This document shows positions 8,298 through 57,817 of a stretch of 64,000 nucleotides of DNA, piece by piece. The position numbers and the translations under genes are program-made. Source of the DNA: a virus; the IMG/VR virus record IMGVR_UViG_3300021440_000014, positions 96,001 to 160,000 of that record. One strand, written 5' to 3'. The notes beneath the pieces are model-generated. The model had not been told where the DNA came from. It saw nothing but the letters and a program-made list of their open reading frames with translations, and ran no database searches. Every line of letters starts with the position of its first letter. Within the stretch, counting starts at the first letter, position 1.

Positions 8298-8380
8298 AGT
8301 GTTAATAGACTATCTTATTTTTATGGAATGTCAAATTTTAAACTTAATTACTGCATTTTCATATCTAACGAAACTAAAAA

Positions 8381-8408: not shown

Positions 8409-8424
8409 TGTGTCCAAGAAAGAA

Positions 8425-8637
8425 TTAAATCTTGGAATAAACTGCACTTGGACGACCACGCCCCGCAGCCTTCTCATTGCGAACAAACTTAATCTTCTGA
8501 GAGGCAATCGCGCTCTTCACTTGAGCATGAATGAAAGGTTGCTTCTTATTAAAAAGAAGTTGAAGATCCTTGATCTTAAATTCCCCATCAGGGAACGTGA
8601 ACGTTTCAGTATTTACATTATTTGTATTTGTATTCAT
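8425..8637 (-). CDS. small putative DNA-binding (winged-helix-like) protein
   Basis: 70 aa, basic, C-terminal GRGRPxxxY wing-like motif. Confidence 0.6.
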   Translation of the reverse strand: MNTNTNNVNTETFTFPDGEFKIKDLQLLFNKKQPFIHAQVKSAIASQKIKFVRNEKAAGRGRPSAVYSKI

Positions 8638-25130: not shown

Positions 25131-26126
25131 TTAATTTTCAATAGCAAAAGGCTCAGACAATATTTTAAAGCTCATTCTGCCACCTAAAACCTCGCTTTGT
25201 TGTTCTTTACAAGGTCTGCATACTATACCCTCTGCGCTGACGCCCTTTAAATATTCTTGCTCGTTAGCCATATTAATAAGCTGCTCTAAGCTGAAATTAA
25301 ATTTTCCTGCCCAAACTACAGGGACAAATGGTAAATTATTTTCAACACAAAATTCCATGAAAACATCAAAATCCGCATATTTACGATGCTTTATGCTAAA
25401 AAAGTTAAACAATGCAAGACTTATTTTTTCGGCTTTCATTGGGTTCTTTTGGATTCCCGGTCCATAGACTTCACCTTGCACAGCATAGTCTCCGGGGAAT
25501 TTAGCTCTAAAAGCTCTCAAAGCTTCTTCTATTTTATATTCTCTAGCAACTTTCCAAAAACCATTCCCCTCTTCTTCTTTTAATTCTAAATTTCTGGAGC
25601 AAACTCCGAATTTTTCGTCTTTAAGATAGAAGGTTCCGCTACTTCCATCCATTTTTAATGTAATACAAGATTCCTTGCCTTGGAGTTCTTTTATTACATC
25701 TGGATAGGTTCTACCATTCAATTCGTCTGTCCTCTTTAAAAAAGATGGGAAACTACCTTCTACTTTTCCGGCTAATTGTGCGGGAACCGGCTTTTCATAT
25801 TTCTGAATACCAGTTTGCTCCGTAACGTCCATTCCTTCGACAATACTATCTTTGTCCAAGAGAATATTGATAGGTAACGCAAGTCCTTCGGAATACTGCC
25901 CCTTAAGGCGAATGGTTTTTAATCTAAAATTCTTATTTCTAAGAAATTCATATTCTGGTTTTTGTGGCAAAATAGTATCGGAATAGTGATAAACACATAA
26001 ATCGTTTTCCTGAAACTCATTTTTCTTGACGACTACCTTATAACCAAGGATATCCGCAACCAAAATGTTATCTGCCCCTTCAATAGGGGAAAGCTTTTTT
26101 ATTCTTTCTATACTAGCTAATTTCAT
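25131..26126 (-). CDS. ATP-dependent RNA ligase, DRB0094 family
   Basis: N-terminal OB fold (PIEGAD, LKGQYSEGL), KMDG, QGE, EGIV, SFK motifs. Confidence 0.9.
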   Translation of the reverse strand: MKLASIERIKKLSPIEGADNILVADILGYKVVVKKNEFQENDLCVYHYSDTILPQKPEYEFLRNKNFRLKTIRLKGQYSEGLALPINILLDKDSIVEGMDVTEQTGIQKYEKPVPAQLAGKVEGSFPSFLKRTDELNGRTYPDVIKELQGKESCITLKMDGSSGTFYLKDEKFGVCSRNLELKEEEGNGFWKVAREYKIEEALRAFRAKFPGDYAVQGEVYGPGIQKNPMKAEKISLALFNFFSIKHRKYADFDVFMEFCVENNLPFVPVVWAGKFNFSLEQLINMANEQEYLKGVSAEGIVCRPCKEQQSEVLGGRMSFKILSEPFAIEN

Positions 26127-26170: not shown

Positions 26171-26890
26171 CTATTTTAATTGAAAATATGCATACCCTAC
26201 ATTTTCATATTCTTCAAATTTTAATAGCCTATGACTTGTGAACTTATCCCTAATCCAACTTAGATTTACAATAGGTTTATGATATTCTATAACTATATAC
26301 TTACATTTACTTAAAAAATATGCTTCTAGAGGATCTGATAAAAGATCATACTCTGCCCCTTCTATATCTATTTTCAAAAGATCGCATGGTGTTGACATGA
26401 AAGTTGCCCATGCATCGGAGATTCTAATTTTTTCTTCTCCTAATTCCGAGCCGTAAACTATTTTAGACTCTGGAGAATGACTGTTTTCTATAAATTTACC
26501 TCCGCTATATCCAACTAAACCTTTTAAAACATATACATTATCGGTGGCAGAATTAAGCTTTAAATTTGATAGACACTTTTTTATAGCCGTATCGCTTGCG
26601 TCTACAGCCATTCCTGAAATTTTATTCTTAATGTTATTACAAAGCCATAATAAAAATAAACCTTTATTACATCCTACGTCATATACATAATTAAAATCCC
26701 ATTTAAGAATTATATCTGAATAGCCTAATCCATTCTTAATTCCATCTTTATTTGATTTCCAATCTTCTAAATCATAATTAAGATATTTTATTTTACCATA
26801 ACTATTCAATTTAGGATATGTAAAACAATATTTGTTTATTTTCTTTACAATTTTTTTGTACAAGGAAGTTTTTTTGAATTTATTAATCAT
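26171..26890 (-). CDS. FkbM-family SAM methyltransferase
   Basis: DVGCNxG, LKIDIEGAE, IEYH. Confidence 0.8.
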   Translation of the reverse strand: MINKFKKTSLYKKIVKKINKYCFTYPKLNSYGKIKYLNYDLEDWKSNKDGIKNGLGYSDIILKWDFNYVYDVGCNKGLFLLWLCNNIKNKISGMAVDASDTAIKKCLSNLKLNSATDNVYVLKGLVGYSGGKFIENSHSPESKIVYGSELGEEKIRISDAWATFMSTPCDLLKIDIEGAEYDLLSDPLEAYFLSKCKYIVIEYHKPIVNLSWIRDKFTSHRLLKFEEYENVGYAYFQLK

Positions 26891-27699
26891 TTTGCTCCTG
26901 TGCAGTTTTTACATATCGAATAAGGTGTGCCGCCATTCCTAAGCTCTTTTCTAGCCTTTTTCCATTTTTTATTCCCTCTCCAAATATCTAATATAGGCTC
27001 ATGGATAACATTTCCTTCTATGTTTTCATGTTTGTAATCGCAGCAGCAAATAGATATATCTCCGTTAATTCGTATCGGTAAAACTCTTTTTGGGCTATTA
27101 CAGTATCCAAGCTTAGGATTATTAACTGCTACTACTCCAGCAATGTTCATTAATTCCTTCTTATCTATCTTTGAATAAGTGAAAATATATGGATATTTAT
27201 CACAAATAAGCTTTATTCTTTCTTCCCATCCCGGTTTAAGCGGTGGATGCTGAGTAATAGCAACCCTTTCAACTCCAGATTTTACCAATCTGTCAGCCAG
27301 TTCCATCGTCAAAAGATCTCCATTCGTAAAAATAATAGGCATTGACTTCGGAAGTTCTCTTTTTGTTTTTTCAATAAAAAAACATATCTCTGGATTAAGA
27401 AGAGGCTCGTTTAAATAGTGATATCCAACTGGACCAGCCCAATTGATTTGTTTTAGTCTACTGATTATTATATTAAAAATACCAATACTTATAAATTCTG
27501 GTTTTATCGGCGCAACGCTATTTGGGCAGTAATAGCAAGCCCTATTACATTGCGTGGAAGTCTCTATCCAGATAGCTTGAGGAAAGCGAAAATCTCGATA
27601 TTTTATAAAATTATATACTGAAATATATAGTAATTTTAATTTAAAAATTAGACTAAAGTGATTGAATCTCCTTAAGAAAGAGAGAGCTATATTTCTCAT
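26887..27699 (-). CDS. radical SAM/SPASM protein
   Basis: CNRACYYC, NEPLL, TNG, C-terminal CC...CxxC. Confidence 0.9.
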   Translation of the reverse strand: MRNIALSFLRRFNHFSLIFKLKLLYISVYNFIKYRDFRFPQAIWIETSTQCNRACYYCPNSVAPIKPEFISIGIFNIIISRLKQINWAGPVGYHYLNEPLLNPEICFFIEKTKRELPKSMPIIFTNGDLLTMELADRLVKSGVERVAITQHPPLKPGWEERIKLICDKYPYIFTYSKIDKKELMNIAGVVAVNNPKLGYCNSPKRVLPIRINGDISICCCDYKHENIEGNVIHEPILDIWRGNKKWKKARKELRNGGTPYSICKNCTGAK

Positions 27700-36599: not shown

Positions 36600-37038
36600 T
36601 GGTGGAAGTGAGGGAAGTCGAATCCCTGTCTCTAACAATCAACTACTTACGTTTACATGCTTATATCAGTTTAATTTTCTGTAACAAAAACTGATCAAAT
36701 TTTATTACAGAGTTTACTATTTAGCCTTTAGTTAAGAAACAAGTAACTTACTTGCTAAAAGTCCTGAAAATTCGCAACTTGACCTATCAGGAGTCAATCG
36801 AGTTGCGGGTAACAGCGATTAGGCTGCTACGGCTTGGTTAAAATCAACTGCTTCAACATTTCCCAAATATGAATCTGGGTTATTGAAGATCTCTTCGGCT
36901 TGCGCCAAGAGAGCATTGATTTCTGCATCATTTTCGTCAGCATTTATTTTTTGATTACATATTTATAGACGCCAAGCAATCTTCGTCTGCATGTAGTATT
37001 AATAGACCAATTTTTAGATCGATACCATTTACACTCCC
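36600..37038 (-). ncRNA. ssrA: tmRNA with 40-codon tag ADENDAEINALLAQAEEIFNNPDSYLGNVEAVDFNQAVAA
   Basis: Acceptor GGGAGTG/CACTTCC-ACCA with G3-U70, T loop TTCGACT, ATAAAT-GCT resume context at 36941, tag ends AA-TAA at 36819. Confidence 0.9.
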
Positions 37039-41903: not shown

Positions 41904-42073
41904 AAGATACTTTCAATTTATACGGTATTTTATTCCTCCGCTCTATTTTTATGTCTTCACGACTCGCTATGACAGACGTTTTTATAGCGGGCATCGCCGC
42001 TCCCTTTTATCAGGTTTTGTTCGCCTTATTTGGCTTCATGTGTTAATTATGTTATTGCTGCTGTAAGTATCTT
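41904..42073 (-). ncRNA. Y-RNA-like module 2 (170 nt)
   Basis: AAGATACTT-A-CAGC ... AAGTATCTT; GTGTAA motif 8 nt upstream. Confidence 0.65.
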
Positions 42074-42093
42074 ACTCTTAATTACACTAAAAC

Positions 42094-42192
42094 TAGAAGC
42101 TGATTTACAGTTTACTCTGGGCACTTTTTGTGTGATTACCGTCACGATGAAGCCGGATTACCGGCGTTTATTTTTTTTGCTGTAAGCTTCTA
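42094..42192 (-). ncRNA. Y-RNA-like module 3
   Basis: TAGAAGC-TTA-CAGCAA ... GCTTCTA; two GGTAATC-containing hairpins. Confidence 0.7.
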
Positions 42193-46392: not shown

Positions 46393-46424
46393 ATGAAAAA
46401 ATTAGTGAGAGGAATTGAAAAATC

Positions 46425-46475
46425 AAGATGCTATTCCGCCCCCTCTCAGGGATTTTTATTAACTGTAGGCGTCTT
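46425..46475 (-). ncRNA. Y-RNA-like module 4
   Basis: AAGACGC-CTA-CAGT ... GCATCTT (one mismatch). Confidence 0.5.
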
Positions 46476-49500: not shown

Positions 49501-49587
49501 TGGCGGATAAGTTAGGTGCTGCCCCCAATTCCCGTAGGAACGATGAGTTTTCAAGACTCTCACGAAAGCTGTTTCGTTTACTTATCC
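49501..49587 (-). tRNA. tRNA-Ser(TGA)
   Basis: CT-TGA-AA, variable arm, GCCA. Confidence 0.8.
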
Positions 49588-50342
49588 TTTAAAATTTTAT
49601 ATCTTTTTTGCCAAAAGCCGGGATAAAACCATTTTATACCAAGACTTTTTAAATGCTTTCTTAATCCTGTATGGCTACAACCTAATTCATCCTTTATTTT
49701 TTCCAAGGATTTTTCTTGAACCATTTTTTCTAAAATTTCCTTATCTGGCCAATTAATAATCTTTTGAATTTTACGAGTCTCTATCCCTTCGGCTATTAAT
49801 CTTTTCATAACTCCAGAAGGAGAACATCCAACAATTTTCGCAATTTGTATGGTAGATTTCTTTTGTATTAAATATAAATCTTTAAGATCAAATTTAGACC
49901 AATCGTATTTGCCTTTCAAACTCAAAGCGCAAAACGTAGAACAAGTTTTATTCCAAAAAGGTTTTTCTTTATTACAAATAGGACAATTATTTATCATTGA
50001 CTTAGATTTATCAATTAATTCTATCCTTTTGTAGTCTACAAAAGATTCATTAAATCTACTTATGGAATCTGGAATAATTCTTAAATTATCGTGGACTTCT
50101 CTATGACAATTAGAACATAATAATACGCATTTTCTTAATTCTATTACTAAATCTTGCCAATTTTTAGGGTTTGCTCTTATAGAACCAAAGCTAAACTCTT
50201 TTTCGCTGGGATCTAAATGATGTAGTTCTAATGCGTTATTACATTTATTATAATCACAAGTTCCGCATTTACCGCCAAATGCATCTATTATTCTTTGTTT
50301 GCTTCTTTTACGCCAATTTTTAACATCTTCCGCTCTGCTCAT
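49578..50342 (-). CDS. HNH endonuclease with C-terminal HTH repeats
   Basis: GGKCxxC, LELHHLDP, CVLLCSNCHREVH; inside the tRNA cluster. Confidence 0.85.
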   Translation of the reverse strand: MSRAEDVKNWRKRSKQRIIDAFGGKCGTCDYNKCNNALELHHLDPSEKEFSFGSIRANPKNWQDLVIELRKCVLLCSNCHREVHDNLRIIPDSISRFNESFVDYKRIELIDKSKSMINNCPICNKEKPFWNKTCSTFCALSLKGKYDWSKFDLKDLYLIQKKSTIQIAKIVGCSPSGVMKRLIAEGIETRKIQKIINWPDKEILEKMVQEKSLEKIKDELGCSHTGLRKHLKSLGIKWFYPGFWQKRYKILKDK

Positions 50343-50378
50343 ACTTTATGTTACACTTATCATGTAACATATAGAAAT

Positions 50379-50454
50379 TGGCTGCTAGAACTGGATTCAA
50401 ACCAGTATCGACGATCTTAACAGGATCGGGAATTATCAATTATTCGATCTAGCA
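50379..50454 (-). tRNA. tRNA-Asn(GTT)
   Basis: CGATC-CTGTTAA-GATCG, GCCA. Confidence 0.85.
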
Positions 50455-50461
50455 TTTAAAT

Positions 50462-50541
50462 TGGTGCAAGTGGTGGGTAACGCTCCCACACGAATAGTCT
50501 GGTTAAAAGCCAGTTGGACGTACTTTGGTACCTTCACTTGC
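50462..50541 (-). tRNA. tRNA-Lys(TTT)
   Basis: CT-TTT-AA, ACCA. Confidence 0.75.
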
Positions 50542-50610
50542 ATAAATAACATGAATGTTTTGAAGTCCGTCTAAACTTCGTCGGACGGGACACATTATCA
50601 TTCACTAAAA

Positions 50611-50684
50611 TGGTAGCCTATGCCGGTAACGCTCCGACGAAGCAATCTTATCAGGATTGTATTATACTTTTTAATTAATAGGCT
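50611..50684 (-). tRNA. tRNA-Ile(GAT)
   Basis: CAATC-CTGATAA-GATTG, ACCA. Confidence 0.85.
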
Positions 50685-50798
50685 ATAAAAATTAATTGAG
50701 CACTAAAGCGAATACCCAAAAGGTCTAACTTTAGAATATTCAATTGGAGAGACTCGTCCTTCATTAGCCGCCGCCTTCGATGGGCACGTTGCTCAAAT

Positions 50799-50884
50799 TG
50801 GTAGCCGTAAAAGGACTTGCACCTTCAAGTATTAGAAGATTTTAAGTCTCCCGGTTCTTCGTTTCCCTTTCAATACATACGGCC
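50799..50884 (-). tRNA. non-canonical tRNA-Leu(TAA)
   Basis: CT-TAA-AA, ACCA; enlarged D region, short variable region. Confidence 0.7.
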
Positions 50885-50885
50885 A

Positions 50886-51092
50886 TTAAAGATCTAAAAG
50901 TTTCAAAGCTTTAAGAAGTAACTTACTTCCCTTTTTCTTTTTCTCTCTATCAGTCAGACTTTCTTTTAGTTTCGACTTAGGAAGATATTCGTCTCCAGCC
51001 CAATTATAAATTTTTGCCTTTTCCCAATTTGTAGCTTCTTCTTTTAATATTTCTATAACAATCTTTTTTATTTTAACTTCTAGTTGGTTCAT
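50886..51092 (-). CDS. hypothetical protein
   Basis: 68-aa ORF filling the gap between tRNAs. Confidence 0.55.
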   Translation of the reverse strand: MNQLEVKIKKIVIEILKEEATNWEKAKIYNWAGDEYLPKSKLKESLTDREKKKKGSKLLLKALKLLDL

Positions 51093-51096
51093 AAAA

Positions 51097-51180
51097 TGGT
51101 CGCCATGACAGGAATCGCACCTGCAAAACTTCAGTTTTTGAAACTGGATGCTGTCCTATTCGCAATTAAGTCACATGGCG
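51097..51180 (-). tRNA. non-canonical tRNA-Leu(CAA)
   Basis: TT-CAA-AA, ACCA; same architecture as Leu(TAA). Confidence 0.7.
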
Positions 51181-51187
51181 TTTTAAA

Positions 51188-51262
51188 TGGTAGGGTTAGC
51201 CGGATCTGCCCCGCGCCTCTATAGGATGAAAGCCTATTATGCTTCTACTGCACCATAACCCC
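51188..51262 (-). tRNA. tRNA-Glu(TTC)
   Basis: ATAGG-CTTTCAT-CCTAT, ACCA. Confidence 0.8.
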
Positions 51263-51270
51263 TGAAAAAC

Positions 51271-51390
51271 TAGATACATTTTTTTGCTTGTCGGACGTTT
51301 TGCCACTAAACTACCCACGTCAATGACGTGGACACGAATCGAACGTGCGCTTTCCGATTGGATTTGCTTTTTGTCTGCTGGATGTATCTA
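51271..51390 (-). ncRNA. YrlA-like Y RNA (module 5) with circularly permuted tRNA-like domain
   Basis: TAGATACAT/ATGTATCTA stem + CAGC; TCGGA/TCCGA; T arm TTCGATT; closed acceptor hairpin; D arm GTTT-AGTGGCA-AAAC. Confidence 0.8.
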
Positions 51391-51394
51391 AAAA

Positions 51395-51469
51395 TGGTAG
51401 CCCGTGAAGGAATCGCACCCTCTCTTCTTCCTTGTAAGGGAAGCTCGCTCCTGTTACAATCAACGGGCT
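51395..51469 (-). tRNA. tRNA-Val(TAC)
   Basis: CTTCC-CTTACAA-GGAAG, ACCA. Confidence 0.85.
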
Positions 51470-51474
51470 ATAAA

Positions 51475-51549
51475 TGGTCAGCACGAAAGGTAACGCTCCT
51501 TCTTGAACTTGATCCCAAATCAAGTGCCTCACTTTTAGGCTACGTGCTG
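51475..51549 (-). tRNA. tRNA-Pro(TGG)
   Basis: CTTGA-TTTGGGA-TCAAG, ACCA. Confidence 0.85.
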
Positions 51550-51694
51550 TATAAAGTTTCAGGTCTTTCCTTGTGTCAATCATCATCGGGTTGGTTTCCA
51601 ACTTACGGAGCGATTTGCCGCTAGATGTTCTAAATTATTAGAGTATGCAGCGATTATGCTATCATACCCTTCTAAGAGTTTTTATTACTCAAGA

Positions 51695-51766
51695 TGGTGG
51701 ACCTGTCGGATACTGCCTCCGAACGAAAATCTTGCAAGGATTCCCTTATGCCTTCATAACAAGCCC
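51695..51766 (-). tRNA. tRNA-Ala(TGC)
   Basis: G3-U70, CT-TGC-AA, ACCA. Confidence 0.8.
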
Positions 51767-51771
51767 ATAAA

Positions 51772-51984
51772 TTACTTATAACTATTTCCCAACTTCTCCC
51801 TCCAATTTTCATTATAATTTTGATGCGCTTCACATTGAGCTTTTGCTTGCTCTAAAGTGATAGCTGGCTGTTTTTTGACAGCCTCCATTGTATCAATTAA
51901 CCATTTAGGAGGAGGAGGAATCCTATTCATTAACTCTTTAAATCTTCTAAGATGTTTTCTTTTTCTTTTTTCGAAATTGATCAT
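51772..51984 (-). CDS. hypothetical protein
   Basis: 70-aa ORF. Confidence 0.55.
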   Translation of the reverse strand: MINFEKRKRKHLRRFKELMNRIPPPPKWLIDTMEAVKKQPAITLEQAKAQCEAHQNYNENWREKLGNSYK

Positions 51985-52074
51985 AAATTGTGGACTGGAA
52001 GGATACCCTAAATCCTTATTCTAGGCTTCGTAGGATTACTACGTCCTCGCTTTGGTGCAGCCCCATAAAAATTC

Positions 52075-52160
52075 GTTGGATTTCACTTTCGATGGCTCAA
52101 TTGATTTCGCGTTACTCCCGCGCACCATCTGCGTTCCCTGTAGCTCTCAGGTCTATCAAC
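52075..52160 (-). ncRNA. AUAGAC...GUGAAAUC motif RNA, copy 3
   Basis: GTTG-ATAGACC...GGGAAC...GTGAAATC-CAAC (covaried closing stem). Confidence 0.55.
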
Positions 52161-52180
52161 AAGAACAAAACCTACTTCGT

Positions 52181-52249
52181 CAACAAATTGGATTTGCGCC
52201 AACTTCCTCGGCGTTTGCCGATGCTTTACTACATAAGCTATTTATGTTG
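52181..52249 (-). ncRNA. tRNA-like RNA lacking an anticodon (4-nt loop)
   Basis: D arm GCTT/AAGC, TCGGC-AAAC-GCCGA, T arm GTTGG-CGCAAAT-CCAAT. Confidence 0.55.
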
Positions 52250-52341
52250 CCTTCTGTTTTTATTCTCTAAAATTGGTGGACCTTATCGCCGCCCTTGCGT
52301 CCGAATTTCACGGAGTCTCCCCGAAGGAAGTCCTTATTAAA

Positions 52342-52432
52342 TGGCGGAAGCATAGAGAATTGCACTCCAACCGGCTTTTGACCGGACAATTTTAGCAAAA
52401 TTGCGTAACAATCTAATATTTACCTTACTTCC
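52342..52432 (-). tRNA. tRNA-Ser(GCT)
   Basis: TT-GCT-AA, long variable arm, GCCA. Confidence 0.85.
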
Positions 52433-52442
52433 AATTAAATAA

Positions 52443-52529
52443 TGGAGCCAACGACAGGTATCGCGCCTGCATACACCTTTCGGTTCTCGCTTTACAAAAG
52501 CGGTGAATTACTTGTCTATCCACGTTGGC
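52443..52529 (-). tRNA. tRNA-Thr(TGT) with long variable arm
   Basis: GCCAACG/CGTTGGC-TCCA, TT-TGT-AA, ACC-GAAA-GGT extra arm. Confidence 0.75.
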
Positions 52530-52536
52530 ATCAAAT

Positions 52537-52618
52537 TGGTGCTCCAACCCCGACTTGCACAGGGACGCTTTCGCACGAAGTTCTAAGCTTCGCATGTCTT
52601 CTATTTCATCATTGGAGC
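52537..52618 (-). tRNA. tRNA-Leu(TAG)
   Basis: CGAAG-CTTAGAA-CTTCG, ACCA. Confidence 0.85.
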
Positions 52619-52625
52619 TAAAAAT

Positions 52626-52698
52626 TGGTTGCGGTCGCGAGAATTAAACTCGTCCTTAAGCTTATGAAACTTACGTGCAATCATTACACTTCCCCGCA
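52626..52698 (-). tRNA. tRNA CAT (fMet-like acceptor)
   Basis: TGCGG/CCGCA-ACCA, TT-CAT-AA. Confidence 0.7.
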
Positions 52699-52713
52699 TT
52701 TTAAAATTAAAGC

Positions 52714-52775
52714 TAGATAGTTGGGATTTTCAATTCCCTATTTTGTGAAAATAAATTTTATACTGCACCTATCTA
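52714..52775 (-). ncRNA. Y-RNA-like module 6
   Basis: TAGATAG-GTG-CAGT ... CTATCTA. Confidence 0.65.
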
Positions 52776-52788
52776 AACTATGAAAACC

Positions 52789-52846
52789 TAGATCCATTTT
52801 TTGTCATTTGAATAATGAGTTTTTTAATTTTTGCTGTTCGGATCTA
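52789..52846 (-). ncRNA. Y-RNA-like module 7
   Basis: TAGATCC-GAA-CAGCAA ... GGATCTA. Confidence 0.7.
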
Positions 52847-52851
52847 TAAAA

Positions 52852-52926
52852 TGGCCCGACAAGTTGGTAACGCTCCAACCTCCACTGTTCTTCAGACAGT
52901 TGCTAATCTATCTCAGCTATTGGCGG
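52852..52926 (-). tRNA. tRNA-Phe(GAA)
   Basis: ACTGT-CTGAAGA-ACAGT, GCCA. Confidence 0.8.
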
Positions 52927-52930
52927 AAAA

Positions 52931-53005
52931 TGGAGCACACGGAGGATTTTGAAACCTCGACGTTCACGTTGGAAGCGTGACATTCTGCCTCTGAATTACG
53001 TGTGC
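52931..53005 (-). tRNA. tRNA-Gly(TCC)
   Basis: Cloverleaf, CT-TCC-AA, TCCA. Confidence 0.9.
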
Positions 53006-53015
53006 TTAAATTGAC

Positions 53016-53065
53016 TAGATACGCTTTTTTCCATAAACAAGGATTTTGACTGCTGCACGTATCTA
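53016..53065 (-). ncRNA. Y-RNA-like module 8
   Basis: TAGATAC-GTG-CAGC ... GTATCTA. Confidence 0.7.
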
Positions 53066-53075
53066 AAAACTTTTC

Positions 53076-53444
53076 TTAAATATTTTTTGGCGTTCTGTGT
53101 GATAGTGTAAAAAAAGCTTTTCTCACCAAGCCTTCCCTTACTTCTACTTCACAAGTTCCAATAAACTCATAAGATTTATAACCTGATTGCGAAGATCCGT
53201 CAATATCTAAAAACGTCCCTTTCGCATAAATTTTTGTTAAACCTGTTTTTTTAGGATTTACAGTTACATTATAATTTGAACCATCAAAATTTGACGATAG
53301 TATTTCTATTACTTCTTCGTCTTCTACTGTCCAAATGGCATTCTCATTTTCATTAATGAAAACTATATCGTTTTCGGCTGTCATGAATTTTACTTGCAAA
53401 ACTGCCGTTTCATCCTTGGCGATTGTAAACTTTTGAATATCCAT
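53076..53444 (-). CDS. Ig-like domain protein (possible virion decoration)
   Basis: WTVEDxxV...V.PKKTG.T.I.A...C.V.V; GTGTAA motif upstream. Confidence 0.6.
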   Translation of the reverse strand: MDIQKFTIAKDETAVLQVKFMTAENDIVFINENENAIWTVEDEEVIEILSSNFDGSNYNVTVNPKKTGLTKIYAKGTFLDIDGSSQSGYKSYEFIGTCEVEVREGLVRKAFFTLSHRTPKNI

Positions 53445-53468
53445 GTAATATATTACACTTTAAATAAC

Positions 53469-53526
53469 TAGATACTTATTTTTCCTTTAACAGAGGAGTT
53501 TTTTTATTTTTTGCTGTTCGTATCTA
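53469..53526 (-). ncRNA. Y-RNA-like module 9 carrying an Asn anticodon stem-loop
   Basis: TAGATAC-GAA-CAGCAA ... TCCT-CTGTTAA-AGGA ... GTATCTA. Confidence 0.7.
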
Positions 53527-53529
53527 AAA

Positions 53530-53606
53530 TGGCACGGCGAACGAGAGTCGAACTCGTCTATTGCTGGTTTGGAATCAGTTGCTTCACTCTACTTAGCTAT
53601 CGCCGT
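53530..53606 (-). tRNA. tRNA-Trp(CCA)
   Basis: TT-CCA-AA, T loop TTCGACT, GCCA. Confidence 0.85.
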
Positions 53607-53613
53607 ATAAAAT

Positions 53614-53688
53614 TGGAGCGGGTAGCGGAATTTGCGTCCGCTTTGAAAAATTGGCAATTTCTCGTAATACTACATATACCATACCCGC
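53614..53688 (-). tRNA. tRNA-Gly(GCC)
   Basis: GCGGGTA/TACCCGC-TCCA, TT-GCC-AA. Confidence 0.85.
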
Positions 53689-53884
53689 ATAAAATCAAAT
53701 AAATTAAATGGAGATAAAAACCTCAACATCTATCCTTATGGATTAGGGTTTTTTAACCTTCGTTGGTAGCATTCTTATTCCTAAGATTACCGGCGTCTCC
53801 GCTTCCCTACGGCTCGCCTCTACGGTTTTGATAACGCTCAAAATTTCTAAAAGCAAAATTTAAACTCGTTCTTACTACTCTTCC

Positions 53885-53912
53885 ATCTTACCAAGTTTTT
53901 CGTTTTTGTCAA
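53885..53912 (-). promoter_or_regulatory. sigma70-type promoter heading the tRNA/ncRNA cluster
   Basis: TTGACA-N16-TAAGAT. Confidence 0.65.
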
Positions 53913-53933
53913 CTCTCTATTTTTCCAACAAAA

Positions 53934-53962
53934 AACCGCCCTTCTTTTCAGAAAAGGCGGTT
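53934..53962 (-). terminator. intrinsic terminator
   Basis: AACCGCC/GGCGGTT + T-run. Confidence 0.65.
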
Positions 53963-54203
53963 AATTCCCCACGAATTTCCCACCCTCCCTAGCAAAAATC
54001 TCCATTTGTCGCTTGGAGGCGACTTGCTTTAACGGACGGTTCTGAAACCCAATATCTCATATCTCTAATAGAATATACACTCTATTTTAAAAAATGTCAA
54101 ATATTTTTAAAACTTTCTTCTAAATTCGCTCTACCTTTATCAAGATATAGCAAAAAGGGGCAGTTTTTAGCTGCCTCCCGTTAATTATTTATTGTTTTCT
54201 AGA

Positions 54204-55205
54204 TTATTTCATTAAAATAAACTTTGTTCCAGCGATAAGCTTTCTATTCGTTGACGTAGACTGTAGAAAGATATCATATTTATTGTTTGTGGCGGGATCT
54301 ACTTGAACTTCATGATCTGGTAATCCAAGCAATTGTCTTGCTTCCGCGCCCGCATAAACCTTGCCATTAAGTTTGTCCTGTAAGCAAACCTGCTTATATC
54401 CTTGAACCTTTTCTTTCTTTGTCAATTGATAGAATCCGCTTCCAATTCTATAGGTTTCTTTTGGATTCCAGCTTTCAACGAAATCCTTGATAGGCTTGTC
54501 CTTATGAACAGAGTAAACACTATAATCGCTAGGATTAAGCTCTACAAGAGTAGATTTAACCGTGCTACTATTTAACGCCGCTGTATCAAGTTGGAAAAGA
54601 TTTTTCGTAGATCTTAATCCTTTTGATCTAGAAGTCATAAAAGTGGACGTAACCGTATTTATTTTTTTGCTTGCCTCTTCCAGACCTCTAGAAGAAGTCT
54701 CCCAAATTTGAATGTTTCCAACTGGAAAACCAAATTTTTTACATTCGTGAACTCCATTTTGGTTTGGAACTAAAACAGCCACAGTGTAGTTCTCTGGAAG
54801 TGAATTAATCGTCTCTTTCAGCTTTTTAGCTAAATGGCTATTGATGTTATTCTCTCCATCGGTTTGAACTATAATTAAATTGCTATGATCTCCATATAAT
54901 TCGGGATTCTTTTTAAGATCCTCTATAGACTTATAGACTGCATCAATTAATGCAGTCATCCCCCTTGGCTCATAGTGATCTTTTATACTAGGCAGTCTGC
55001 ATACATCTTGATCGTATAACAAACACTTTACTGAATCAGAGAAAACGTAAATAGAAACTCTTGTTTCTTGATCTAATTCTATAGATCTTTGCTTAAGGTG
55101 TTCTATTTGTCTGTCAAATGCTAAAATAGTTTCTTTTTTAAAAATCGACATAGAAGAACTTGCATCTAACACGAAAGAGATATGGTTTATATATTTTTGT
55201 ATCAT
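54204..55205 (-). CDS. von Willebrand A (vWA) domain protein
   Basis: VLDASSSM (MIDAS DxSxS), GMTALIDA, TDGENN. Confidence 0.85.
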   Translation of the reverse strand: MIQKYINHISFVLDASSSMSIFKKETILAFDRQIEHLKQRSIELDQETRVSIYVFSDSVKCLLYDQDVCRLPSIKDHYEPRGMTALIDAVYKSIEDLKKNPELYGDHSNLIIVQTDGENNINSHLAKKLKETINSLPENYTVAVLVPNQNGVHECKKFGFPVGNIQIWETSSRGLEEASKKINTVTSTFMTSRSKGLRSTKNLFQLDTAALNSSTVKSTLVELNPSDYSVYSVHKDKPIKDFVESWNPKETYRIGSGFYQLTKKEKVQGYKQVCLQDKLNGKVYAGAEARQLLGLPDHEVQVDPATNNKYDIFLQSTSTNRKLIAGTKFILMK

Positions 55206-55287
55206 ATATATATAATATAATCTGTTCTTTTTGAAAAATCAAGCAAATATCGTCAATCCTTCTAATTATGTGTAATATAATATTGAA

Positions 55288-56247
55288 ATGAAAAAAGAAA
55301 AAATATGTAAAAAATGCAATAATAATTTTATTATTAATTTCAAAATAAATGACAAAAATATATGTCTCTCTAACCGAAGTTTTTGCTTATTATGTAAACC
55401 TAAAAGACAAAAAATATCGAAAGATGCTATAGAAAATATAATAAAAGAATATAATTTAATTGGAGCAGAAGAATGCCAAAAGAAATTTAAAATATCAAAA
55501 AATCAAATTACATATATTGCTTCTAAATATAAATTAAAATTAAATCCAAAAACTCATAGTAAAATAAAATCTAAAAGTAAAATAGAGATAGATCCTTTTA
55601 AATACAAAGTTAATCATCTTTCATTCAGTAATATAAATAATTCAATATGCGCTTATATATTAGGGCTAATTTGGACAGATGGACATATTAATTCAAGAAA
55701 TAACTCGATTATATTTTCAACCACATATCCTGATTCCGAATATTTTTCTAAAGAATTCTTAAAAACAGGTTCATGGAACATTTATAGATATAAGTCTAAT
55801 AAAAATCACAAAGATAAAATATCAATAATAACTACTAATAAATTCCTAAAAGAAACATTAGTATCTTTGGGTTTTTTAGAAAAAATAAAAGGGTTAGAAA
55901 AAGTTTATGAACATATACCAGAAAATCTAAAACATTATTTTATTCGGGGGCTAATAGATGGAGACGGATGCTTTTATGTTAATAAAAAGAAATCGATTTA
56001 TCGTTTTTCTCTATGCTCCTGTTTAAATCAAAACTGGAACTGCATACAAAAACTACTAGATTCACTTAGCATAAAGTATAAAATAGAAAACTCTACTACA
56101 AAAAATGGATCTTATAGCAAAATACATATTAGTGGCATACCTAATGTAAAAAAATTTGGCGACTTCGTTTATAGAAATCGCCAAGATGACTTTATTGGAT
56201 TAGATCGTAAATATAAAAAATATTTAGAAGTTCAATTTAAAACCTAA
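55288..56247 (+). CDS. LAGLIDADG homing endonuclease (two motifs)
   Basis: YILGLIWTDG and FIRGLIDGDG, C-terminal LDRK. Confidence 0.85.
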   Translation: MKKEKICKKCNNNFIINFKINDKNICLSNRSFCLLCKPKRQKISKDAIENIIKEYNLIGAEECQKKFKISKNQITYIASKYKLKLNPKTHSKIKSKSKIEIDPFKYKVNHLSFSNINNSICAYILGLIWTDGHINSRNNSIIFSTTYPDSEYFSKEFLKTGSWNIYRYKSNKNHKDKISIITTNKFLKETLVSLGFLEKIKGLEKVYEHIPENLKHYFIRGLIDGDGCFYVNKKKSIYRFSLCSCLNQNWNCIQKLLDSLSIKYKIENSTTKNGSYSKIHISGIPNVKKFGDFVYRNRQDDFIGLDRKYKKYLEVQFKT

Positions 56248-57817
56248 CATTCGCATATCTCTCCGAAGAAAGGATCTTAACCATTTCGTCGTAAGGATTC
56301 GTGATTTTTCCGCCAAGAATGAACTTTATAGTGCTTGGCGAACTTCCGCTGACAAGCATCACTCCGTCCTCATTCATCTTAGCAGGACTATTATCTTCTC
56401 TCGCGTTAAGATTCCAGAAGATTATTTCTGGCATTTTATACTTCGCGGCCTTATATTTAGACTTAATAACCTCAAGGTTAGTAAGCTTATTAGACTTGCA
56501 AGCTGTATTGAATTCCATGTCAGAAAAGACAATAAGCTTCTTAGGCATATCGGACTGCTTCACTTTTCTTGCTTTGGCGGACTCAAGAATTAACTCAAAT
56601 GCCGCTTGCAAATTAGTGCTTCCACCCCAAGATGCTTTTCTGATATTATTAATCTTTTCGTATACTGTGCTTCCGTTAACAGTCTGCAATTTAGGACTCT
56701 CTTCAAAGGTTATAAACCAATTTTTGAATGGACCGTTATTTCTTTCTGAAACGTAAAGACCCAATCCAATTGAAGAATACATAGGAGGAACACTTGCTCC
56801 ACCGCTTAACATCGAGCTTGACACGTCAATCAATGGAATCATTGAACACTCACTTCCCTCAAAGAAATCAGGCAAATTATTCCACATAACATCAACTGAT
56901 GAAGTTGCATCTCCACTTAGAACGCTTCTAACTATGTCGTAAGGATAAAGTCCAGAAGTATTGATTTTAACTTCTCCCTTAGCCGCCTTATCTAAGAAGG
57001 CTGCATATCTCTCGTTGTCATTACGAGCAAAAGCCTTTCTATAAAGAAAACCGGCTCTGGAAGGAATCTTATCGTAACTAATAGAACTCCAGTCCTTTTT
57101 GCACATGGCCTGCTCTACAAGAGAAATTTTCTTTCTGAGAAAAGACAAAATCCTACGATAGTTTCTCTCTGAAAGACTCATGAAAGAGGCAAACTTTAGC
57201 CCCATCTTTCGGCTCTCAAGCGAAGAGGCATTGGTCGAAGGCATCCATTTGGCAATAAGCGATGGATTCTCACTGCTGAGATCCGCGTGAAGCTTGTTGT
57301 TGATAAATGTCATCATCTGCTTCTCACACTGCGTTCCAACTAACTCAAAGAGATCGTCAGTTCTTCCATAAAAAAGAATATTCTCAAAGTTGGCTGTAAC
57401 CACATTAGGATAGTTGGAGGCAAGCCATCTTAGGCAAGTTCTAAATGTCTTTCTTTCGCCTTGCCCGCCACGTATATCTCTAATATAAAAAAGAGCCTTC
57501 ATAGCAAGGTCGCTATTTTCGAACAATGCCTTTTTAAAGGCGTCCACAACTACGGCTTCAGTTTGAGATCTAAACGCTCCAGCCTTGGAAAAGAAATCCA
57601 AGACCTTATCTCCAGTAGACTTGTTAGTAAGTGCTCCATTAGCAGTAAAAACCTTAGCCTTGGAAGTATCCTCTAAAACCATCGCTTTGAGCAATGGATT
57701 AATATTACTAGAAGGTAGTGCGTTGGCTTTGAAAGAAGCTTGGCTTACGCTCTTTGAGTCTGAAACCTTCTTCTTCGCCTTTGGTAGCTTATTTAACTGT
57801 TCGTTAATGTTTTTCAT
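56237..57817 (-). CDS. DUF2828-family protein (Ro60/TROVE-like helical domain + vWA)
   Basis: TxNGA..STG..LDFF, RDIRGGQGER, AKWMP, IDVSSSM, WGGSTNL, FSDMEF, IFWNL, VSG.S. Confidence 0.85.
   Translation of the reverse strand: MKNINEQLNKLPKAKKKVSDSKSVSQASFKANALPSSNINPLLKAMVLEDTSKAKVFTANGALTNKSTGDKVLDFFSKAGAFRSQTEAVVVDAFKKALFENSDLAMKALFYIRDIRGGQGERKTFRTCLRWLASNYPNVVTANFENILFYGRTDDLFELVGTQCEKQMMTFINNKLHADLSSENPSLIAKWMPSTNASSLESRKMGLKFASFMSLSERNYRRILSFLRKKISLVEQAMCKKDWSSISYDKIPSRAGFLYRKAFARNDNERYAAFLDKAAKGEVKINTSGLYPYDIVRSVLSGDATSSVDVMWNNLPDFFEGSECSMIPLIDVSSSMLSGGASVPPMYSSIGLGLYVSERNNGPFKNWFITFEESPKLQTVNGSTVYEKINNIRKASWGGSTNLQAAFELILESAKARKVKQSDMPKKLIVFSDMEFNTACKSNKLTNLEVIKSKYKAAKYKMPEIIFWNLNAREDNSPAKMNEDGVMLVSGSSPSTIKFILGGKITNPYDEMVKILSSERYANVRF

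What the first reader, a model, noticed from the sequence alone, without database searches (positions are those of the whole stretch)
53469..53526. Minimal Y-like RNA presenting an isolated tRNA-Asn anticodon stem-loop
Seen: between A-rich linkers lies TCCT-CTGTTAA-AGGA. The 7-nt loop is identical to the anticodon loop of this phage's tRNA-Asn (50379-50454). Module 52714-52775 has a weaker TATT-TTCACAA-AATA (Val-like) loop, and module 52789-52846 has a hairpin at the equivalent position. Inference: anticodon decoys for anticodon nucleases or modifying toxins, held on a Ro-like scaffold. One 7-nt match could be chance.
Basis: partly seen in the sequence, partly recalled or inferred. Interest (0 to 1): 0.7.

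Follow-up and report, generated by a model that had tools for sequence, protein, structure and literature searches.

The report
Phage Y-like RNA showing tRNA-Asn anticodon arm
A 59-base phage RNA gene pairs a conserved "handle", probably held by the phage's Ro60-shaped protein, with a hairpin copying the tRNA-Asn anticodon loop; the same design recurs in many unrelated phages, so the copy is selected, perhaps as bait for host enzymes that cut tRNAs.

Summary
On the minus strand, 53526->53468 folds into a 7-bp closing stem, an unpaired GAA-CAGCA, A-rich linkers and the hairpin TCCT-CTGTTAA-AGGA. Its loop equals that of the phage's tRNA-Asn.

- Among 255 non-identical short modules from other phages, 59 carry a YU-NNN-RA 7-nt loop on a stem of at least 4 bp. 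Shuffles gave 7.5 +/- 2.5.
- 47 carry CU-NNN-AA (shuffles 1.1), and 26 carry the Asn or Lys loop itself (shuffles 0.1).
- Stems covary and are mostly exactly 5 bp. The bias was seen again in a second, separately retrieved set.
- A model trained without this window scores this module 55.7 bits (E 1.8e-9).

The handle travels, always on the same strand, with a DUF2828/vWA protein (56237-57817). Its predicted fold matches Ro60. A 38%-identical E. coli phage homologue (Bas63 gp130) is reported to counter a defence system.

So the mimicry and the Ro-like scaffold are supported. The decoy function is inference.

The Val-like loop claimed for 52714-52775 is not supported. The 52789-52846 hairpin is not anticodon-like.

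This scan has noted the same RNA family in at least 9 other genomes. I found it neither in Rfam 15 nor in the papers searched.

The parts
53468..53526 (-). Module M1: the whole short Y-like RNA gene (59 nt)
   Evidence: Fold. Top hit in the window of model R1, trained without this window: 55.7 bits, E 1.8e-9.
53520..53526 (-). 5' arm of the closing stem (TAGATAC)
   Evidence: Pairs with 53469-53475. The stem covaries among the window's copies (AC/GT, CC/GG, AG/CT) and across phages (100% paired, 4 of 7 pairs changed on both sides).
53512..53519 (-). Unpaired GAA-CAGCA, the invariant 'handle' motif (CAGCAA invariant in 43 of 43 aligned relatives)
   Evidence: The CGAA overlap recalls the Ro-binding motif of Y RNAs (PMC4201824, PMC12135203).
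53498..53511 (-). A-rich 5' linker
   Evidence: Linkers in relatives are about 51% A.
53483..53497 (-). Cargo hairpin TCCT-CTGTTAA-AGGA, an anticodon-arm look-alike of tRNA-Asn(GUU); loop at 53487-53493
   Evidence: The same loop sits on 9 different stems in other phages.
53476..53482 (-). A-rich 3' linker
53468..53475 (-). 3' arm of the closing stem (GTATCTA) plus the conserved G
53530..53606 (-). tRNA-Trp, ending 3 nt before M1; M1 is probably cut from the same transcript
   Evidence: Co-transcription is inferred.
56237..57817 (-). Gene for the 526-aa DUF2828 + DUF7788 (vWA-like) protein with a predicted Ro60 fold, the presumed protein partner
   Evidence: Pfam. AF2 model pLDDT 86, pTM 0.83. 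The top 13 Foldseek PDB hits are all Ro60. PHROG 850 'RNA-binding protein'.
53013..53065 (-). Module M2, same handle; cargo TCC-UUGUUUAU-GGA (8-nt loop)
   Evidence: R1 23.6 bits.
52788..52846 (-). Module M3, same handle; cargo UCAUU-AUUCA-AAUGA
   Evidence: R1 43.7 bits.
52713..52775 (-). Module M4, same handle (CAGUA); cargo GGGA-AUUGAAAA-UCCC
   Evidence: R1 18.2 bits.
51271..51390 (-). Module M5: same handle carrying a rotated tRNA-like body (T arm, sealed acceptor-like hairpin, D arm)
   Evidence: Rfam YrlA 22.9 bits, below the gathering score of 69.
42093..42192 (-). Further module with the same handle (TAGAAGCT...AGCTTCTAG) and two cargo hairpins
   Evidence: R1 28.2 bits.
41904..42073 (-). 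Further long module with the same handle (AAGATACTT...AAGTATCTTG)
   Evidence: Read; not analysed further.
50379..50454 (-). The phage's own tRNA-Asn(GTT), the original of the copied loop

Best explanation
53526->53468 (minus strand) is a small non-coding RNA gene of a widespread phage family. It is probably cut out of the tRNA-array transcript.

Its two ends pair into a stem. Together with the unpaired CAGCA(A) motif, this stem forms a constant 'handle'. The phage's Ro60-shaped DUF2828/vWA protein, encoded 2.7 kb upstream on the same strand, most likely binds it, as Ro60 binds Y RNAs.

Between two floppy A-rich linkers the RNA displays a short hairpin that imitates the anticodon arm of tRNA-Asn (C32 U33 GUU A37 A38).

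I propose that the particle offers this look-alike to a host factor that reads anticodon loops. The most likely such factor is a tRNA-cutting defence nuclease that targets tRNA-Asn and tRNA-Lys. The RNA would then act as a competing decoy or bait while the phage's own tRNAs keep translation going. The protein would stabilise the RNA and may couple it to RNA turnover or repair.

Shown here: the family, the handle-gene linkage, the Ro60 fold, and selection on the anticodon-like loop with a bias to Asn and Lys.
Inferred: expression and processing, protein binding, and the decoy action.

My sub-confidences: handle RNA partnered with the Ro-like protein 0.9; selected anticodon-arm mimicry 0.85; decoy or bait for a tRNA-directed nuclease 0.35-0.4.
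For: Family membership
- Model R1, built from 43 modules of other phages, scores M1 at 55.7 bits, E 1.8e-9, the best hit in the window.
- The genome has five such modules by the strict scan, all in the tRNA region.

Linkage to the protein
- In 80 loci chosen by the protein, the handle occurs 111 times on the gene's strand, 4 times on the other strand and 16 times in reversed sequence. Most copies lie just upstream of the gene.
- In loci chosen by the handle alone, 45 of 116 held pieces contain the gene, and all 43 with scored modules have it on the same strand.
- Of 48 further whole records, 28 hold the gene, including 13 of the 14 that are at least 90% complete.

Ro60 fold
- The top 13 PDB matches are Ro60, Rsr or phage phiLo Ro60, with TM up to 0.59.

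Mimicry
- CTGTTAA and CTTTTAA are the two commonest cargo loops.
- 12 of 13 CTGTTAA occurrences sit on a stem of at least 4 bp, with 9 different stems.
- Stems are exactly 5 bp in 27 of 36 cases.
- The 31-39 pair is A-U 34 times and U-A 11 times, as in tRNAs.
- Enrichment over shuffles: 59 against 7.5 for YU-NNN-RA, 47 against 1.1 for CU-NNN-AA, 26 against 0.1 for the Asn/Lys loops. Antisense and reversed controls are near background.
- The bias was seen again in a second retrieved set: 14 of 83, antisense 0.
- Displayed stems never equal the same phage's tRNA stem in 13 cases, and their GC is 0.22 against 0.6. Only the loop and the pairing are kept.

Link to defence
- Asn plus Lys make up 14 of 28 independent mimics, against 13.7% among these phages' tRNAs with CU..AA loops (P 5e-6).
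- The PARIS effector AriB cuts tRNA-Lys(UUU), Thr(UGU) and Asn(GUU) (PMC12409363).
- PrrC cuts tRNAs in the anticodon loop (PMC12409363). That its target is tRNA-Lys is my own knowledge.
- Bas63 gp130, 38.5% identical, is reported as a Ro60-like counter of the Ppl defence (preprint 10.1101/2024.10.10.617714).
- The phage also encodes an RNA ligase.
Against: - No expression, binding or activity data exist for this phage.
- M1's stem is only 4 bp, and displayed stems are AU-rich and weak.
- Only about 19% of short modules carry a canonical anticodon-like loop. The other three short modules of this window do not.
- AriB needs contacts outside the anticodon arm and cuts in the stem at 40|41 (PMC12409363), so a bare hairpin may not engage it.
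- The one reported phenotype of a homologue is against Ppl, described as a DNA exonuclease (PMC12904381), not a tRNA nuclease.
- Lys and Asn codons are simply the commonest in AT-rich phages, so the bias could have another cause.
- The phage lacks RtcB.
- The host is unknown.
Confidence: 0.4

Rival explanations
1. Adaptor rather than decoy. The anticodon-arm look-alike, like the tRNA-like bodies of longer family members, tethers the Ro-like particle to a tRNA-binding host protein. Candidates are a modification enzyme such as the t6A37 or queuosine machinery, a class IIb aminoacyl-tRNA synthetase, PNPase or the ribosome. The particle would recruit, redirect or soak up that protein, as Y RNA tethers Rsr to PNPase.
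For: - Y RNAs are known tethers, and YrlA is recognised by tRNA enzymes (PMC4201824).
- Phage phiLo Ro60 with its Yrl RNAs binds host PNPase (PMC12135203).
- 34 of 48 displayed anticodons end in U and 13 in A, followed by A37 A38. From my own knowledge, not checked here, these are the loop classes that receive t6A37 or i6A37.
- Cargo ranges continuously from whole tRNA-like bodies to the anticodon arm alone: of 146 long modules, 92 have a T arm and 30 also an anticodon-like arm.
Against: - There is no direct evidence for any partner.
- The NNU/NNA bias may be AT-richness of the cargo (43% A, 33% T).
- Asp (GUC), the third class IIb substrate, was not seen among the displayed loops.
Confidence: 0.25
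2. Sensor. The displayed anticodon arm is a tripwire. When a host anticodon nuclease cuts it, the Ro-like ring captures the new RNA end and the particle changes state. It might then release the protein or trigger RNA repair or degradation of damaged tRNA. This reports the attack rather than absorbing it.
For: - Ro60 rings bind single-stranded RNA ends in their central hole (PMC4201824 introduction).
- The bacterial rsr-Y RNA genes sit in an RNA repair operon switched on by damaged tRNA fragments (PMC7790460 abstract).
- An RNA ligase is encoded in this phage and lies within 10 kb of the gene in 8 of 80 related loci.
Against: - Entirely inferential.
- No conserved protein neighbour besides the RNAs was found.
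- There is no RtcB.
Confidence: 0.12
3. Relic or coincidence. The hairpin is a decaying leftover of a former tRNA-like cargo, or a chance hairpin in A/T-rich spacer, with no function of its own. Only the handle matters.
For: - Most short modules carry hairpins with no recognisable tRNA feature.
- M1's stem is short and weak.
- Three of four short modules here are not anticodon-like.
Against: - Neutral decay would erase loop and pairing alike. Instead the loop is fixed while stems change by paired substitutions: 94.7% of cells paired against 45.6% in shuffles.
- There is 40-fold or greater enrichment over shuffles, and it was seen again in a second set.
- The chance of the match in this window alone is about 0.1%.
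Confidence: 0.06
4. Not an RNA at all. The inverted repeat TAGATAC...GTATCTAG is a DNA-level site, such as a protein-binding palindrome, a miniature mobile element or a homing-endonuclease target, scattered through the tRNA region.
For: - Homing endonuclease genes lie nearby: LAGLIDADG at 55288-56247 and HNH at 49578-50342.
- The element is bounded by inverted repeats.
Against: - There is strict strand asymmetry relative to the protein gene (111 against 4).
- There is a strand-specific loop signature (59 sense against 9 antisense).
- Long members carry tRNA-like bodies readable only on this strand.
Confidence: 0.03

Closest known systems
Bacterial and phage Y RNAs bound by Ro60/Rsr: YrlA and YrlB (Rfam RF02553; Chen et al. 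2014, PMC4201824) and Thermus phage phiLo Yrl1/Yrl2 with phiRo60 (PMC12135203)
   Same: - A small RNA whose 5' and 3' ends pair.
- An unpaired motif next to the stem; M1 and M3 even have CGAA.
- Encoded on the same strand within 4 kb of a Ro60-fold ring protein with a vWA domain.
- Several different RNAs per genome.
- A tRNA theme in the variable part.
- The mycobacteriophage homologues of this very protein are annotated 'Ro-like RNA binding protein'.
   Different: - M1 gets no Rfam hit, and the long copy M5 scores 22.9 against a gathering score of 69.
- The invariant motif is CAGCAA, not GNCGAAN0-1G.
- The protein is not recognised by Pfam TROVE.
- YrlA mimics the D arm, T arm and acceptor stem and lacks an anticodon arm. 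M1 displays only an anticodon arm.
tRNA anticodon stem-loop, here tRNA-Asn(GUU)
   Same: A 7-nt loop with C32, U33, GUU, A37, A38, identical to the loop of this phage's tRNA-Asn and of 69 of 85 phage tRNA-Asn genes examined. Relatives have 5-bp stems and the A31-U39 preference.
   Different: There is no tRNA body. M1's stem is 4 bp. Displayed stems are AU-rich (GC 0.22 against about 0.6) and unrelated in sequence to any tRNA of the same phage.
Known phage answers to tRNA-cutting defences: cleavage-resistant phage tRNAs (T5 against PARIS; PMC11464382, PMC12409363), tRNA overproduction or amplification against Septu/retron Eco7, and Pnk/Rnl1 repair against PrrC (summarised in PMC13728456)
   Same: - Sits in a large phage tRNA array.
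- Concerns the tRNA species, Lys and Asn, that such nucleases cut.
- The phage also has an RNA ligase.
   Different: Those answers replace, outnumber or mend tRNAs. A non-translating anticodon-arm look-alike on a Ro-like particle was not mentioned in any paper I found.
Bas63 gp130 (Escherichia phage JohannRWettstein), a Ro60-like counter of the Ppl defence (preprint 10.1101/2024.10.10.617714)
   Same: A homologous protein (38.5% identity over 88% of the query). The gene lies beside a tRNA array that holds four unannotated modules with the same kind of handle.
   Different: Its handle variant is AGACC...GGTCT. None of its three short modules has a canonical anticodon loop. The defence it counters is described as a DNA exonuclease (PMC12904381).

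Membership tests
YrlA / bacterial Y RNA (Rfam RF02553) | Reaches the Rfam gathering score (69 bits) | tested here: not met
   M1 has no match even at E up to 10. The long copy M5 scores 22.9 bits.
YrlA / bacterial Y RNA (Rfam RF02553) | tRNA-like domain with T arm, D arm and acceptor-like stem | tested here: not met
   M1's cargo is a single 15-nt hairpin. The domain is present in M5.
YrlA / bacterial Y RNA (Rfam RF02553) | GNCGAAN0-1G motif near the 5' end (PMC4201824) | tested here: inconclusive
   M1 reads GAUACGAACAG. It has CGAA, but the flanking Gs are out of register. Across 43 relatives the invariant motif is CAGCAA, not CGAA.
YrlA / bacterial Y RNA (Rfam RF02553) | Encoded within 4 kb of, and on the same strand as, a Ro60 orthologue (criterion of PMC4201824) | tested here: met
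   M1 lies 2.7 kb from the Ro60-fold gene at 56237-57817, on the same strand. The protein is, however, not a Pfam TROVE match.
YrlA / bacterial Y RNA (Rfam RF02553) | Physically bound and stabilised by Ro60 | not testable with these tools
   Needs immunoprecipitation or a gel-shift assay.
Phage 'stem + CAGCAA handle' RNAs linked to DUF2828 (undescribed family) | Closing stem WAGA.../...TCTWG with covariation, and CAGCA at a fixed offset | tested here: met
   100% of cells paired, with 4 of 7 pairs changed on both sides.
Phage 'stem + CAGCAA handle' RNAs linked to DUF2828 (undescribed family) | Scores with a covariance model trained on other phages | tested here: met
   R1: 55.7 bits, E 1.8e-9.
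Phage 'stem + CAGCAA handle' RNAs linked to DUF2828 (undescribed family) | Same strand and same genome as a DUF2828 gene | tested here: met
   Window. Family-wide.
tRNA anticodon stem-loop (as a mimic) | 7-nt loop with U33 and a purine at 37, here C32 U33 GUU A37 A38 | tested here: met
tRNA anticodon stem-loop (as a mimic) | 5-bp stem | tested here: not met
   M1 has 4 bp and then C.A. The feature is met in 27 of 36 relatives.
Ro60 / TROVE proteins (for the partner protein) | Pfam TROVE domain match | tested here: not met
   A six-frame search of the whole 172-kb genome found none. A profile search of PDB sequences found no Ro60.
Ro60 / TROVE proteins (for the partner protein) | Helical-repeat ring plus C-terminal vWA domain (fold) | tested here: met
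   AF2 pLDDT 86 and pTM 0.83. Foldseek's top 13 hits are all Ro60, E 2e-8 to 7e-5, over about 500-570 alignment columns. Pfam finds DUF7788 and a weak VWA_2 match.
Decoy or inhibitor of anticodon nucleases | Binds, is cut by, or inhibits a tRNA-directed nuclease and protects the phage | not testable with these tools
   There are only indirect pointers: the Asn/Lys bias and the literature (PMC12409363; preprint 10.1101/2024.10.10.617714).

The most novel reading that the evidence does not exclude
Phages carry a mix-and-match panel of RNA baits. One Ro60-like ring protein holds many small RNAs by a common handle. Each RNA shows a different piece of tRNA, most often the anticodon arm of tRNA-Asn or tRNA-Lys. 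Together they neutralise, or detect, host immune nucleases that kill infection by cutting those tRNAs. This would be an RNA-based counter-defence of a kind not yet described, and the first clear job for a Y-RNA-type particle in a virus.
Probability: 0.35. Interest if true: 0.9.

Novelty: new variant of a known kind. Interest (0 to 1): 0.72.

Why it matters
What Y RNAs do has been an open question since their discovery. In bacteria the only known role is tethering Ro60 to PNPase, and the purpose of their tRNA mimicry is unknown (PMC4201824).

Here the variable part of a Y-like RNA has a readable, testable meaning. It is an isolated anticodon arm, kept by selection in many unrelated phages. It is strongly biased to tRNA-Asn and tRNA-Lys, two tRNAs that published phage-defence nucleases cut.

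The partner protein family is present in 704 cultured phage records: Felixounaviruses of E. coli and Salmonella, mycobacteriophages, Listeria A511-like phages, Bacillus, Vibrio, Staphylococcus and Campylobacter phages. One member already has a reported counter-defence phenotype.

At least one cultured phage, Bacillus phage FADO on B. subtilis, carries a Lys-type module. The idea can therefore go straight to the bench.

If the decoy reading holds, it adds a fourth strategy to the phage answers to tRNA-targeting immunity. It would also explain many 'empty' gaps and 'pseudo-tRNAs' in phage tRNA arrays.

Tried and rejected
- Rfam 15, at gathering and at permissive thresholds, gave nothing for M1 and only a sub-threshold YrlA hit for the long copy.
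- Megablast of 50000-56000 against cultured phages found no near relative.
- The Pfam TROVE search of the whole genome was negative. Sequence searches of the PDB with the protein and with its profile found no Ro60. Only the fold comparison showed it.
- A single-protein locus search gave one locus. An alignment was needed.
- RtcB and T4 Rnl1 families are absent from the genome, although the Rnl1 control rang nowhere, so that answer is void.
- Apart from the RNAs, no protein neighbour is conserved next to the DUF2828 gene. The vWA gene at 54204-55205 is found in 4 of 80 loci, DUF6915 in 3 and RNA ligase in 8. The 11-of-80 'neighbour' is an HNH homing endonuclease.
- The host-like-stem test failed for lack of a host. 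Displayed stems match no tRNA of the same phage.
- Bas63, Tsamsa, A511 and KVP40 were looked at for a tractable Asn/Lys module. Bas63 and Tsamsa have the handle family but no canonical loop. My scans found nothing in the A511 and KVP40 regions, whose handles may differ.
- I considered the Val-like loop in M4 and a Leu(GAG) reading of 46424-46475. I rejected both because more stable alternative hairpins exist, an 8-nt loop and a GAGA tetraloop (direct reading).
- My first clustering at 70% identity over-merged A-rich sequences. I kept it only as a conservative bound.
Full report
**What is there**

The window is 96001-160000 of a 172,010-bp virus record rated complete. All tRNAs, a tmRNA and the neighbouring genes run on the minus strand.

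Read on that strand, 53526->53468 is made of these parts:
- TAGATAC, then GAA-CAGCA;
- a 14-nt A-rich linker;
- TCCT-CTGTTAA-AGGA;
- a 7-nt A-rich linker;
- GTATCTA, then G.

It starts 3 nt after tRNA-Trp. It ends 23 nt before the start codon of a 122-codon reading frame.

An unconstrained RNA fold gives the 7-bp closing stem plus the 4-bp hairpin with the 7-nt loop (-6.3 kcal/mol, z -2.27).

The phage's tRNA-Asn arm is CGATC-CTGTTAA-GATCG. The loop is identical and the stem unrelated.

In 20,000 shuffles of the four short cargos, only 23 produced a 7-nt loop on a stem of at least 4 bp matching one of the ten ARAGORN-called tRNA loops.

**The module family in this genome**

The motif TAGAT-N5-CAG-N-A occurs 7 times in the window against 0.56 expected.

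A scan of the whole genome for this motif with a complementary 3' arm finds five modules, all in the tRNA region:
- M1, 53468-53526;
- M2, 53013-53065;
- M3, 52788-52846;
- M4, 52713-52775;
- M5, 51271-51390.

Their closing stems differ by paired changes (AC/GT, CC/GG, AG/CT).

M5 carries a rotated tRNA-like body (T arm, closed hairpin, D arm). It is the only part that Rfam's YrlA model touches, at 22.9 bits against a gathering score of 69.

Looser copies lie at 42093-42192, 41904-42073 and 46424-46475.

**The partner protein**

The frame at 56237-57817 (minus) encodes a 526-aa DUF2828 + DUF7788 protein with a weak vWA match. PHROGs calls its family 'RNA-binding protein'.

Pfam TROVE finds nothing in the genome. 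Sequence searches of the PDB find no Ro60.

An AlphaFold model built on 34 homologues (pLDDT 86, pTM 0.83) matches Ro60 over its whole length. The top 13 Foldseek hits are frog and human Ro60, Deinococcus Rsr and Thermus phage phiLo Ro60 (E 2e-8 to 7e-5, TM up to 0.59).

Homologues occur in 704 cultured phage records. The mycobacteriophage ones are annotated 'Ro-like RNA binding protein'.

**Handle and protein travel together**

- In 80 IMG/VR loci fetched by the protein, my handle scan hits 111 times on the gene's strand, 4 times on the opposite strand and 16 times in reversed sequence. Most hits lie within 600 bases upstream of the gene.
- Conversely, loci were fetched by a handle pattern alone, with nothing specified in the cargo. 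Of these, 45 of 116 held pieces contain the gene. In all 43 with scored modules the strand is the same.
- Of 48 further whole records, 28 have the gene, including 13 of the 14 that are at least 90% complete.
- No other protein neighbour is conserved.

This is the arrangement of Y RNAs and Ro60 (PMC4201824; PMC12135203). The protein-RNA contact itself is inferred.

I collected 255 non-identical short modules (85 nt or less) from other phages.

| Loop pattern, 7 nt on a stem of at least 4 bp | Modules | 200 dinucleotide shuffles | Antisense | Reversed |
|---|---|---|---|---|
| YU-NNN-RA | 59 | 7.5 +/- 2.5 (max 14) | 9 | 5 |
| CU-NNN-AA | 47 | 1.1 +/- 1.1 | 3 | 1 |
| CU[G/U]UUAA | 26 | 0.1 | 0 | 0 |

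(All figures.)

Further results:
- Folding the cargos alone, with no pattern imposed, 7 nt is the commonest loop size. CUUUUAA and CUGUUAA (11 each) are far ahead of any other loop.
- Of 13 CTGTTAA occurrences in the first set, 12 sit on a stem of at least 4 bp, with 9 different inner stems. CTTTTAA has 7 different stems.
- The stem is exactly 5 bp in 27 of 36 cases.
- On an alignment of 30 such hairpins, 94.7% of cells pair, against 45.6% in shuffles and 37-43% with slid partners. The two outer pairs were not required by my selection, and they pair in 28 and 24 of 30 sequences.
- The pair next to the loop is A-U 34 times and U-A 11 times, the tRNA orientation.

The pattern was found on the first set. 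It was then checked on a second set fetched with the other handle subtype. There, 14 of 83 new modules carry CU-NNN-AA, against 0 antisense and 2 reversed. UUU and GUU again lead.

A covariance model built from 43 such modules, none from this window, makes M1 its best hit in the window (55.7 bits, E 1.8e-9).

**Which anticodons, and how tRNA-like**

The held loci contain 1,966 ARAGORN tRNAs. Their tRNA-Asn loop is CTGTTAA in 69 of 85 genes. Their tRNA-Lys loop is CTTTTAA in 66 of 87.

Displayed arms never share the stem of the same phage's tRNA (13 cases). They are AU-rich, with GC 0.22 against about 0.6. So they are not fresh copies of tRNA genes. The loop and the pairing are what is conserved.

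Among 28 mimics less than 75% identical to one another, 14 are Asn or Lys. The expected share, from tRNAs with the same loop frame, is 13.7% (binomial P 5e-6).

The rest are scattered singles: Thr UGU and CGU, Ile GAU, Tyr GUA, Ser, Cys, Arg UCU, Met CAU and an amber-type CUA.

Among 146 longer modules, 92 have a T arm and 30 also an anticodon-like arm. Cargo therefore runs from near-whole tRNA shapes down to the anticodon arm alone.

**What this supports and what it does not**

Supported:
- M1 is a real member of a large family of handle RNAs tied to a Ro60-fold protein.
- Its hairpin belongs to the commonest defined cargo class, a selected look-alike of the tRNA-Asn anticodon arm.

Not supported:
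- The Val-like hairpin in M4. The fold prefers GGGA-AUUGAAAA-UCCC.
- An anticodon reading of M3. Its AUUCA(A) loop belongs to a small recurring AUUCAA class.
- An anticodon reading of M2, which has an 8-nt loop.

**Mechanism**

The decoy idea rests on indirect links:
- Published defence nucleases cut exactly these tRNAs. PARIS AriB cuts Lys(UUU), Thr(UGU) and Asn(GUU) and recognises U36-A-A-U39 (PMC12409363). Among displayed Asn and Lys arms, position 39 is U in 18 of 27.
- Phages are known to answer such attacks with resistant tRNAs, more tRNA, or repair (PMC13728456). This phage has a large tRNA set and an RNA ligase.
- A 38.5%-identical homologue, Bas63 gp130, was reported as Ro60-like and as a counter of the Ppl defence (preprint 10.1101/2024.10.10.617714). 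I find four unannotated handle modules in that phage's tRNA array.

Against the decoy idea:
- AriB needs contacts beyond the arm.
- Ppl is described as a DNA exonuclease (PMC12904381).
- The displayed stems are weak.
- Four in five short modules show no tRNA feature.
- Lys and Asn codons are simply the commonest in AT-rich phages.

I put the decoy or bait reading at 0.35-0.4. The rivals are a tether to a tRNA-binding protein at 0.25, a cleavage sensor at 0.12, a relic or chance at 0.06, and a DNA-level site at 0.03.

**Comparison and novelty**

It works like a Y RNA, but it is not a member of YrlA. It fails the Rfam threshold, lacks the tRNA-like domain, and has CAGCAA instead of the GNCGAAN0-1G motif. 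The protein is Ro60 by predicted fold, not by Pfam.

Phage Ro60-like proteins and phage Y-like RNAs are known (PMC4201824, PMC12135203, PMC7824862). I did not find an isolated anticodon arm as Y-RNA cargo, or its Asn/Lys bias, in Rfam 15 or in the papers searched.

Other agents of this scan have noted the same family in at least 9 other genomes. Their notes gave me the DUF2828 lead, which I re-tested here.

**Limits**

- Relatedness among metagenomic phages is only crudely controlled.
- The cut-off of 85 nt for 'short' is arbitrary.
- tRNA loops come from ARAGORN calls.
- The host is unknown.

Noticed in passing
L320:17151-17216 (+), i.e. NC_073050.1 about 81775-81840, Bacillus phage FADO: A cultured B. 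subtilis phage carries a short module (handle AAGGCAC...GTGCCTTG) whose cargo is ACAAT-CTTTTAA-ATTGT, a 5-bp, 7-nt look-alike of the tRNA-Lys(UUU) arm. It lies 2.8 kb upstream of the phage's Ro-like gene gp144. R1 scores it 49.3 bits. This is a ready laboratory system.
   Followed up: partly
L319:7712-7778, 7879-7936, 8334-8401, 8421-8546 (+), Escherichia phage JohannRWettstein (Bas63), MZ501086.1: Four unannotated handle modules (AGACC...GGTCT) lie between the tRNA genes just downstream of gp130, the reported Ro60-like counter of Ppl. The last one (8421-8546) overlaps the annotated minus-strand 'hypothetical protein' bas63_0137, and 8334-8401 touches its end. That small frame may be spurious.
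   Followed up: partly
L322 (Vibrio phage KVP40, AY283928.2), features tRNA-Pseudo-1 to -5: The Ro-like gene KVP40.0300 follows a tRNA array containing five 75-124-nt 'pseudo-tRNA' features. They may be long handle modules with tRNA-like cargo. My scans, tuned to other handle subtypes, found nothing there.
   Followed up: no
alignment A3 (43 anticodon-type modules from other phages): In a subset the anticodon-like arm is preceded by GC(A) and followed by A-UAC...GC(UAA). This suggests a 2-bp clamp across an internal loop and a semi-conserved AUAC after the arm. M1 lacks this.
   Followed up: no
window 52788-52846 (-) and about 14 modules in other loci: A second recurring cargo: hairpins whose loop is AUUCAA or contains it (M3, L016, L020, L024, L288, L294 and others). 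No explanation; not anticodon-like.
   Followed up: partly
L195:159-226 (-): A module displays CTCTAAA, an amber-suppressor-type loop (anticodon CUA), in a locus that also has a tRNA with anticodon CTA and the same loop. This hints at a phage that reads TAG as sense.
   Followed up: no
window 25131-26126 (-), with 26171-26890 and 26887-27699: An RNA ligase with an N-terminal OB-fold domain (PF21189 + PF09414) lies next to an FkbM-type methyltransferase and a radical-SAM/SPASM protein. This could be an RNA repair or modification cluster.
   Followed up: partly
window 55288-56247 (+) and 49578-50342 (-): A LAGLIDADG homing endonuclease gene sits between the Ro-like gene and a vWA gene (54204-55205). 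An HNH homing endonuclease gene sits next to tRNA-Asn. Ppl, the defence countered by the Bas63 homologue, is said to sense DNA ends made by phage homing endonucleases (PMC12904381).
   Followed up: no
window 36600-37038 (-): The phage encodes a full-length tmRNA (Rfam 99.5 bits) upstream of the tRNA array.
   Followed up: no
L098, L151, L212, L229, L239, L252 (IMG/VR contigs named GVMAG): Handle modules also turn up on contigs binned as giant-virus MAGs. Either these are misbinned phages or the family reaches beyond phages. Pfam describes DUF2828 as eukaryotic and viral; that is from memory and was not checked.
   Followed up: no
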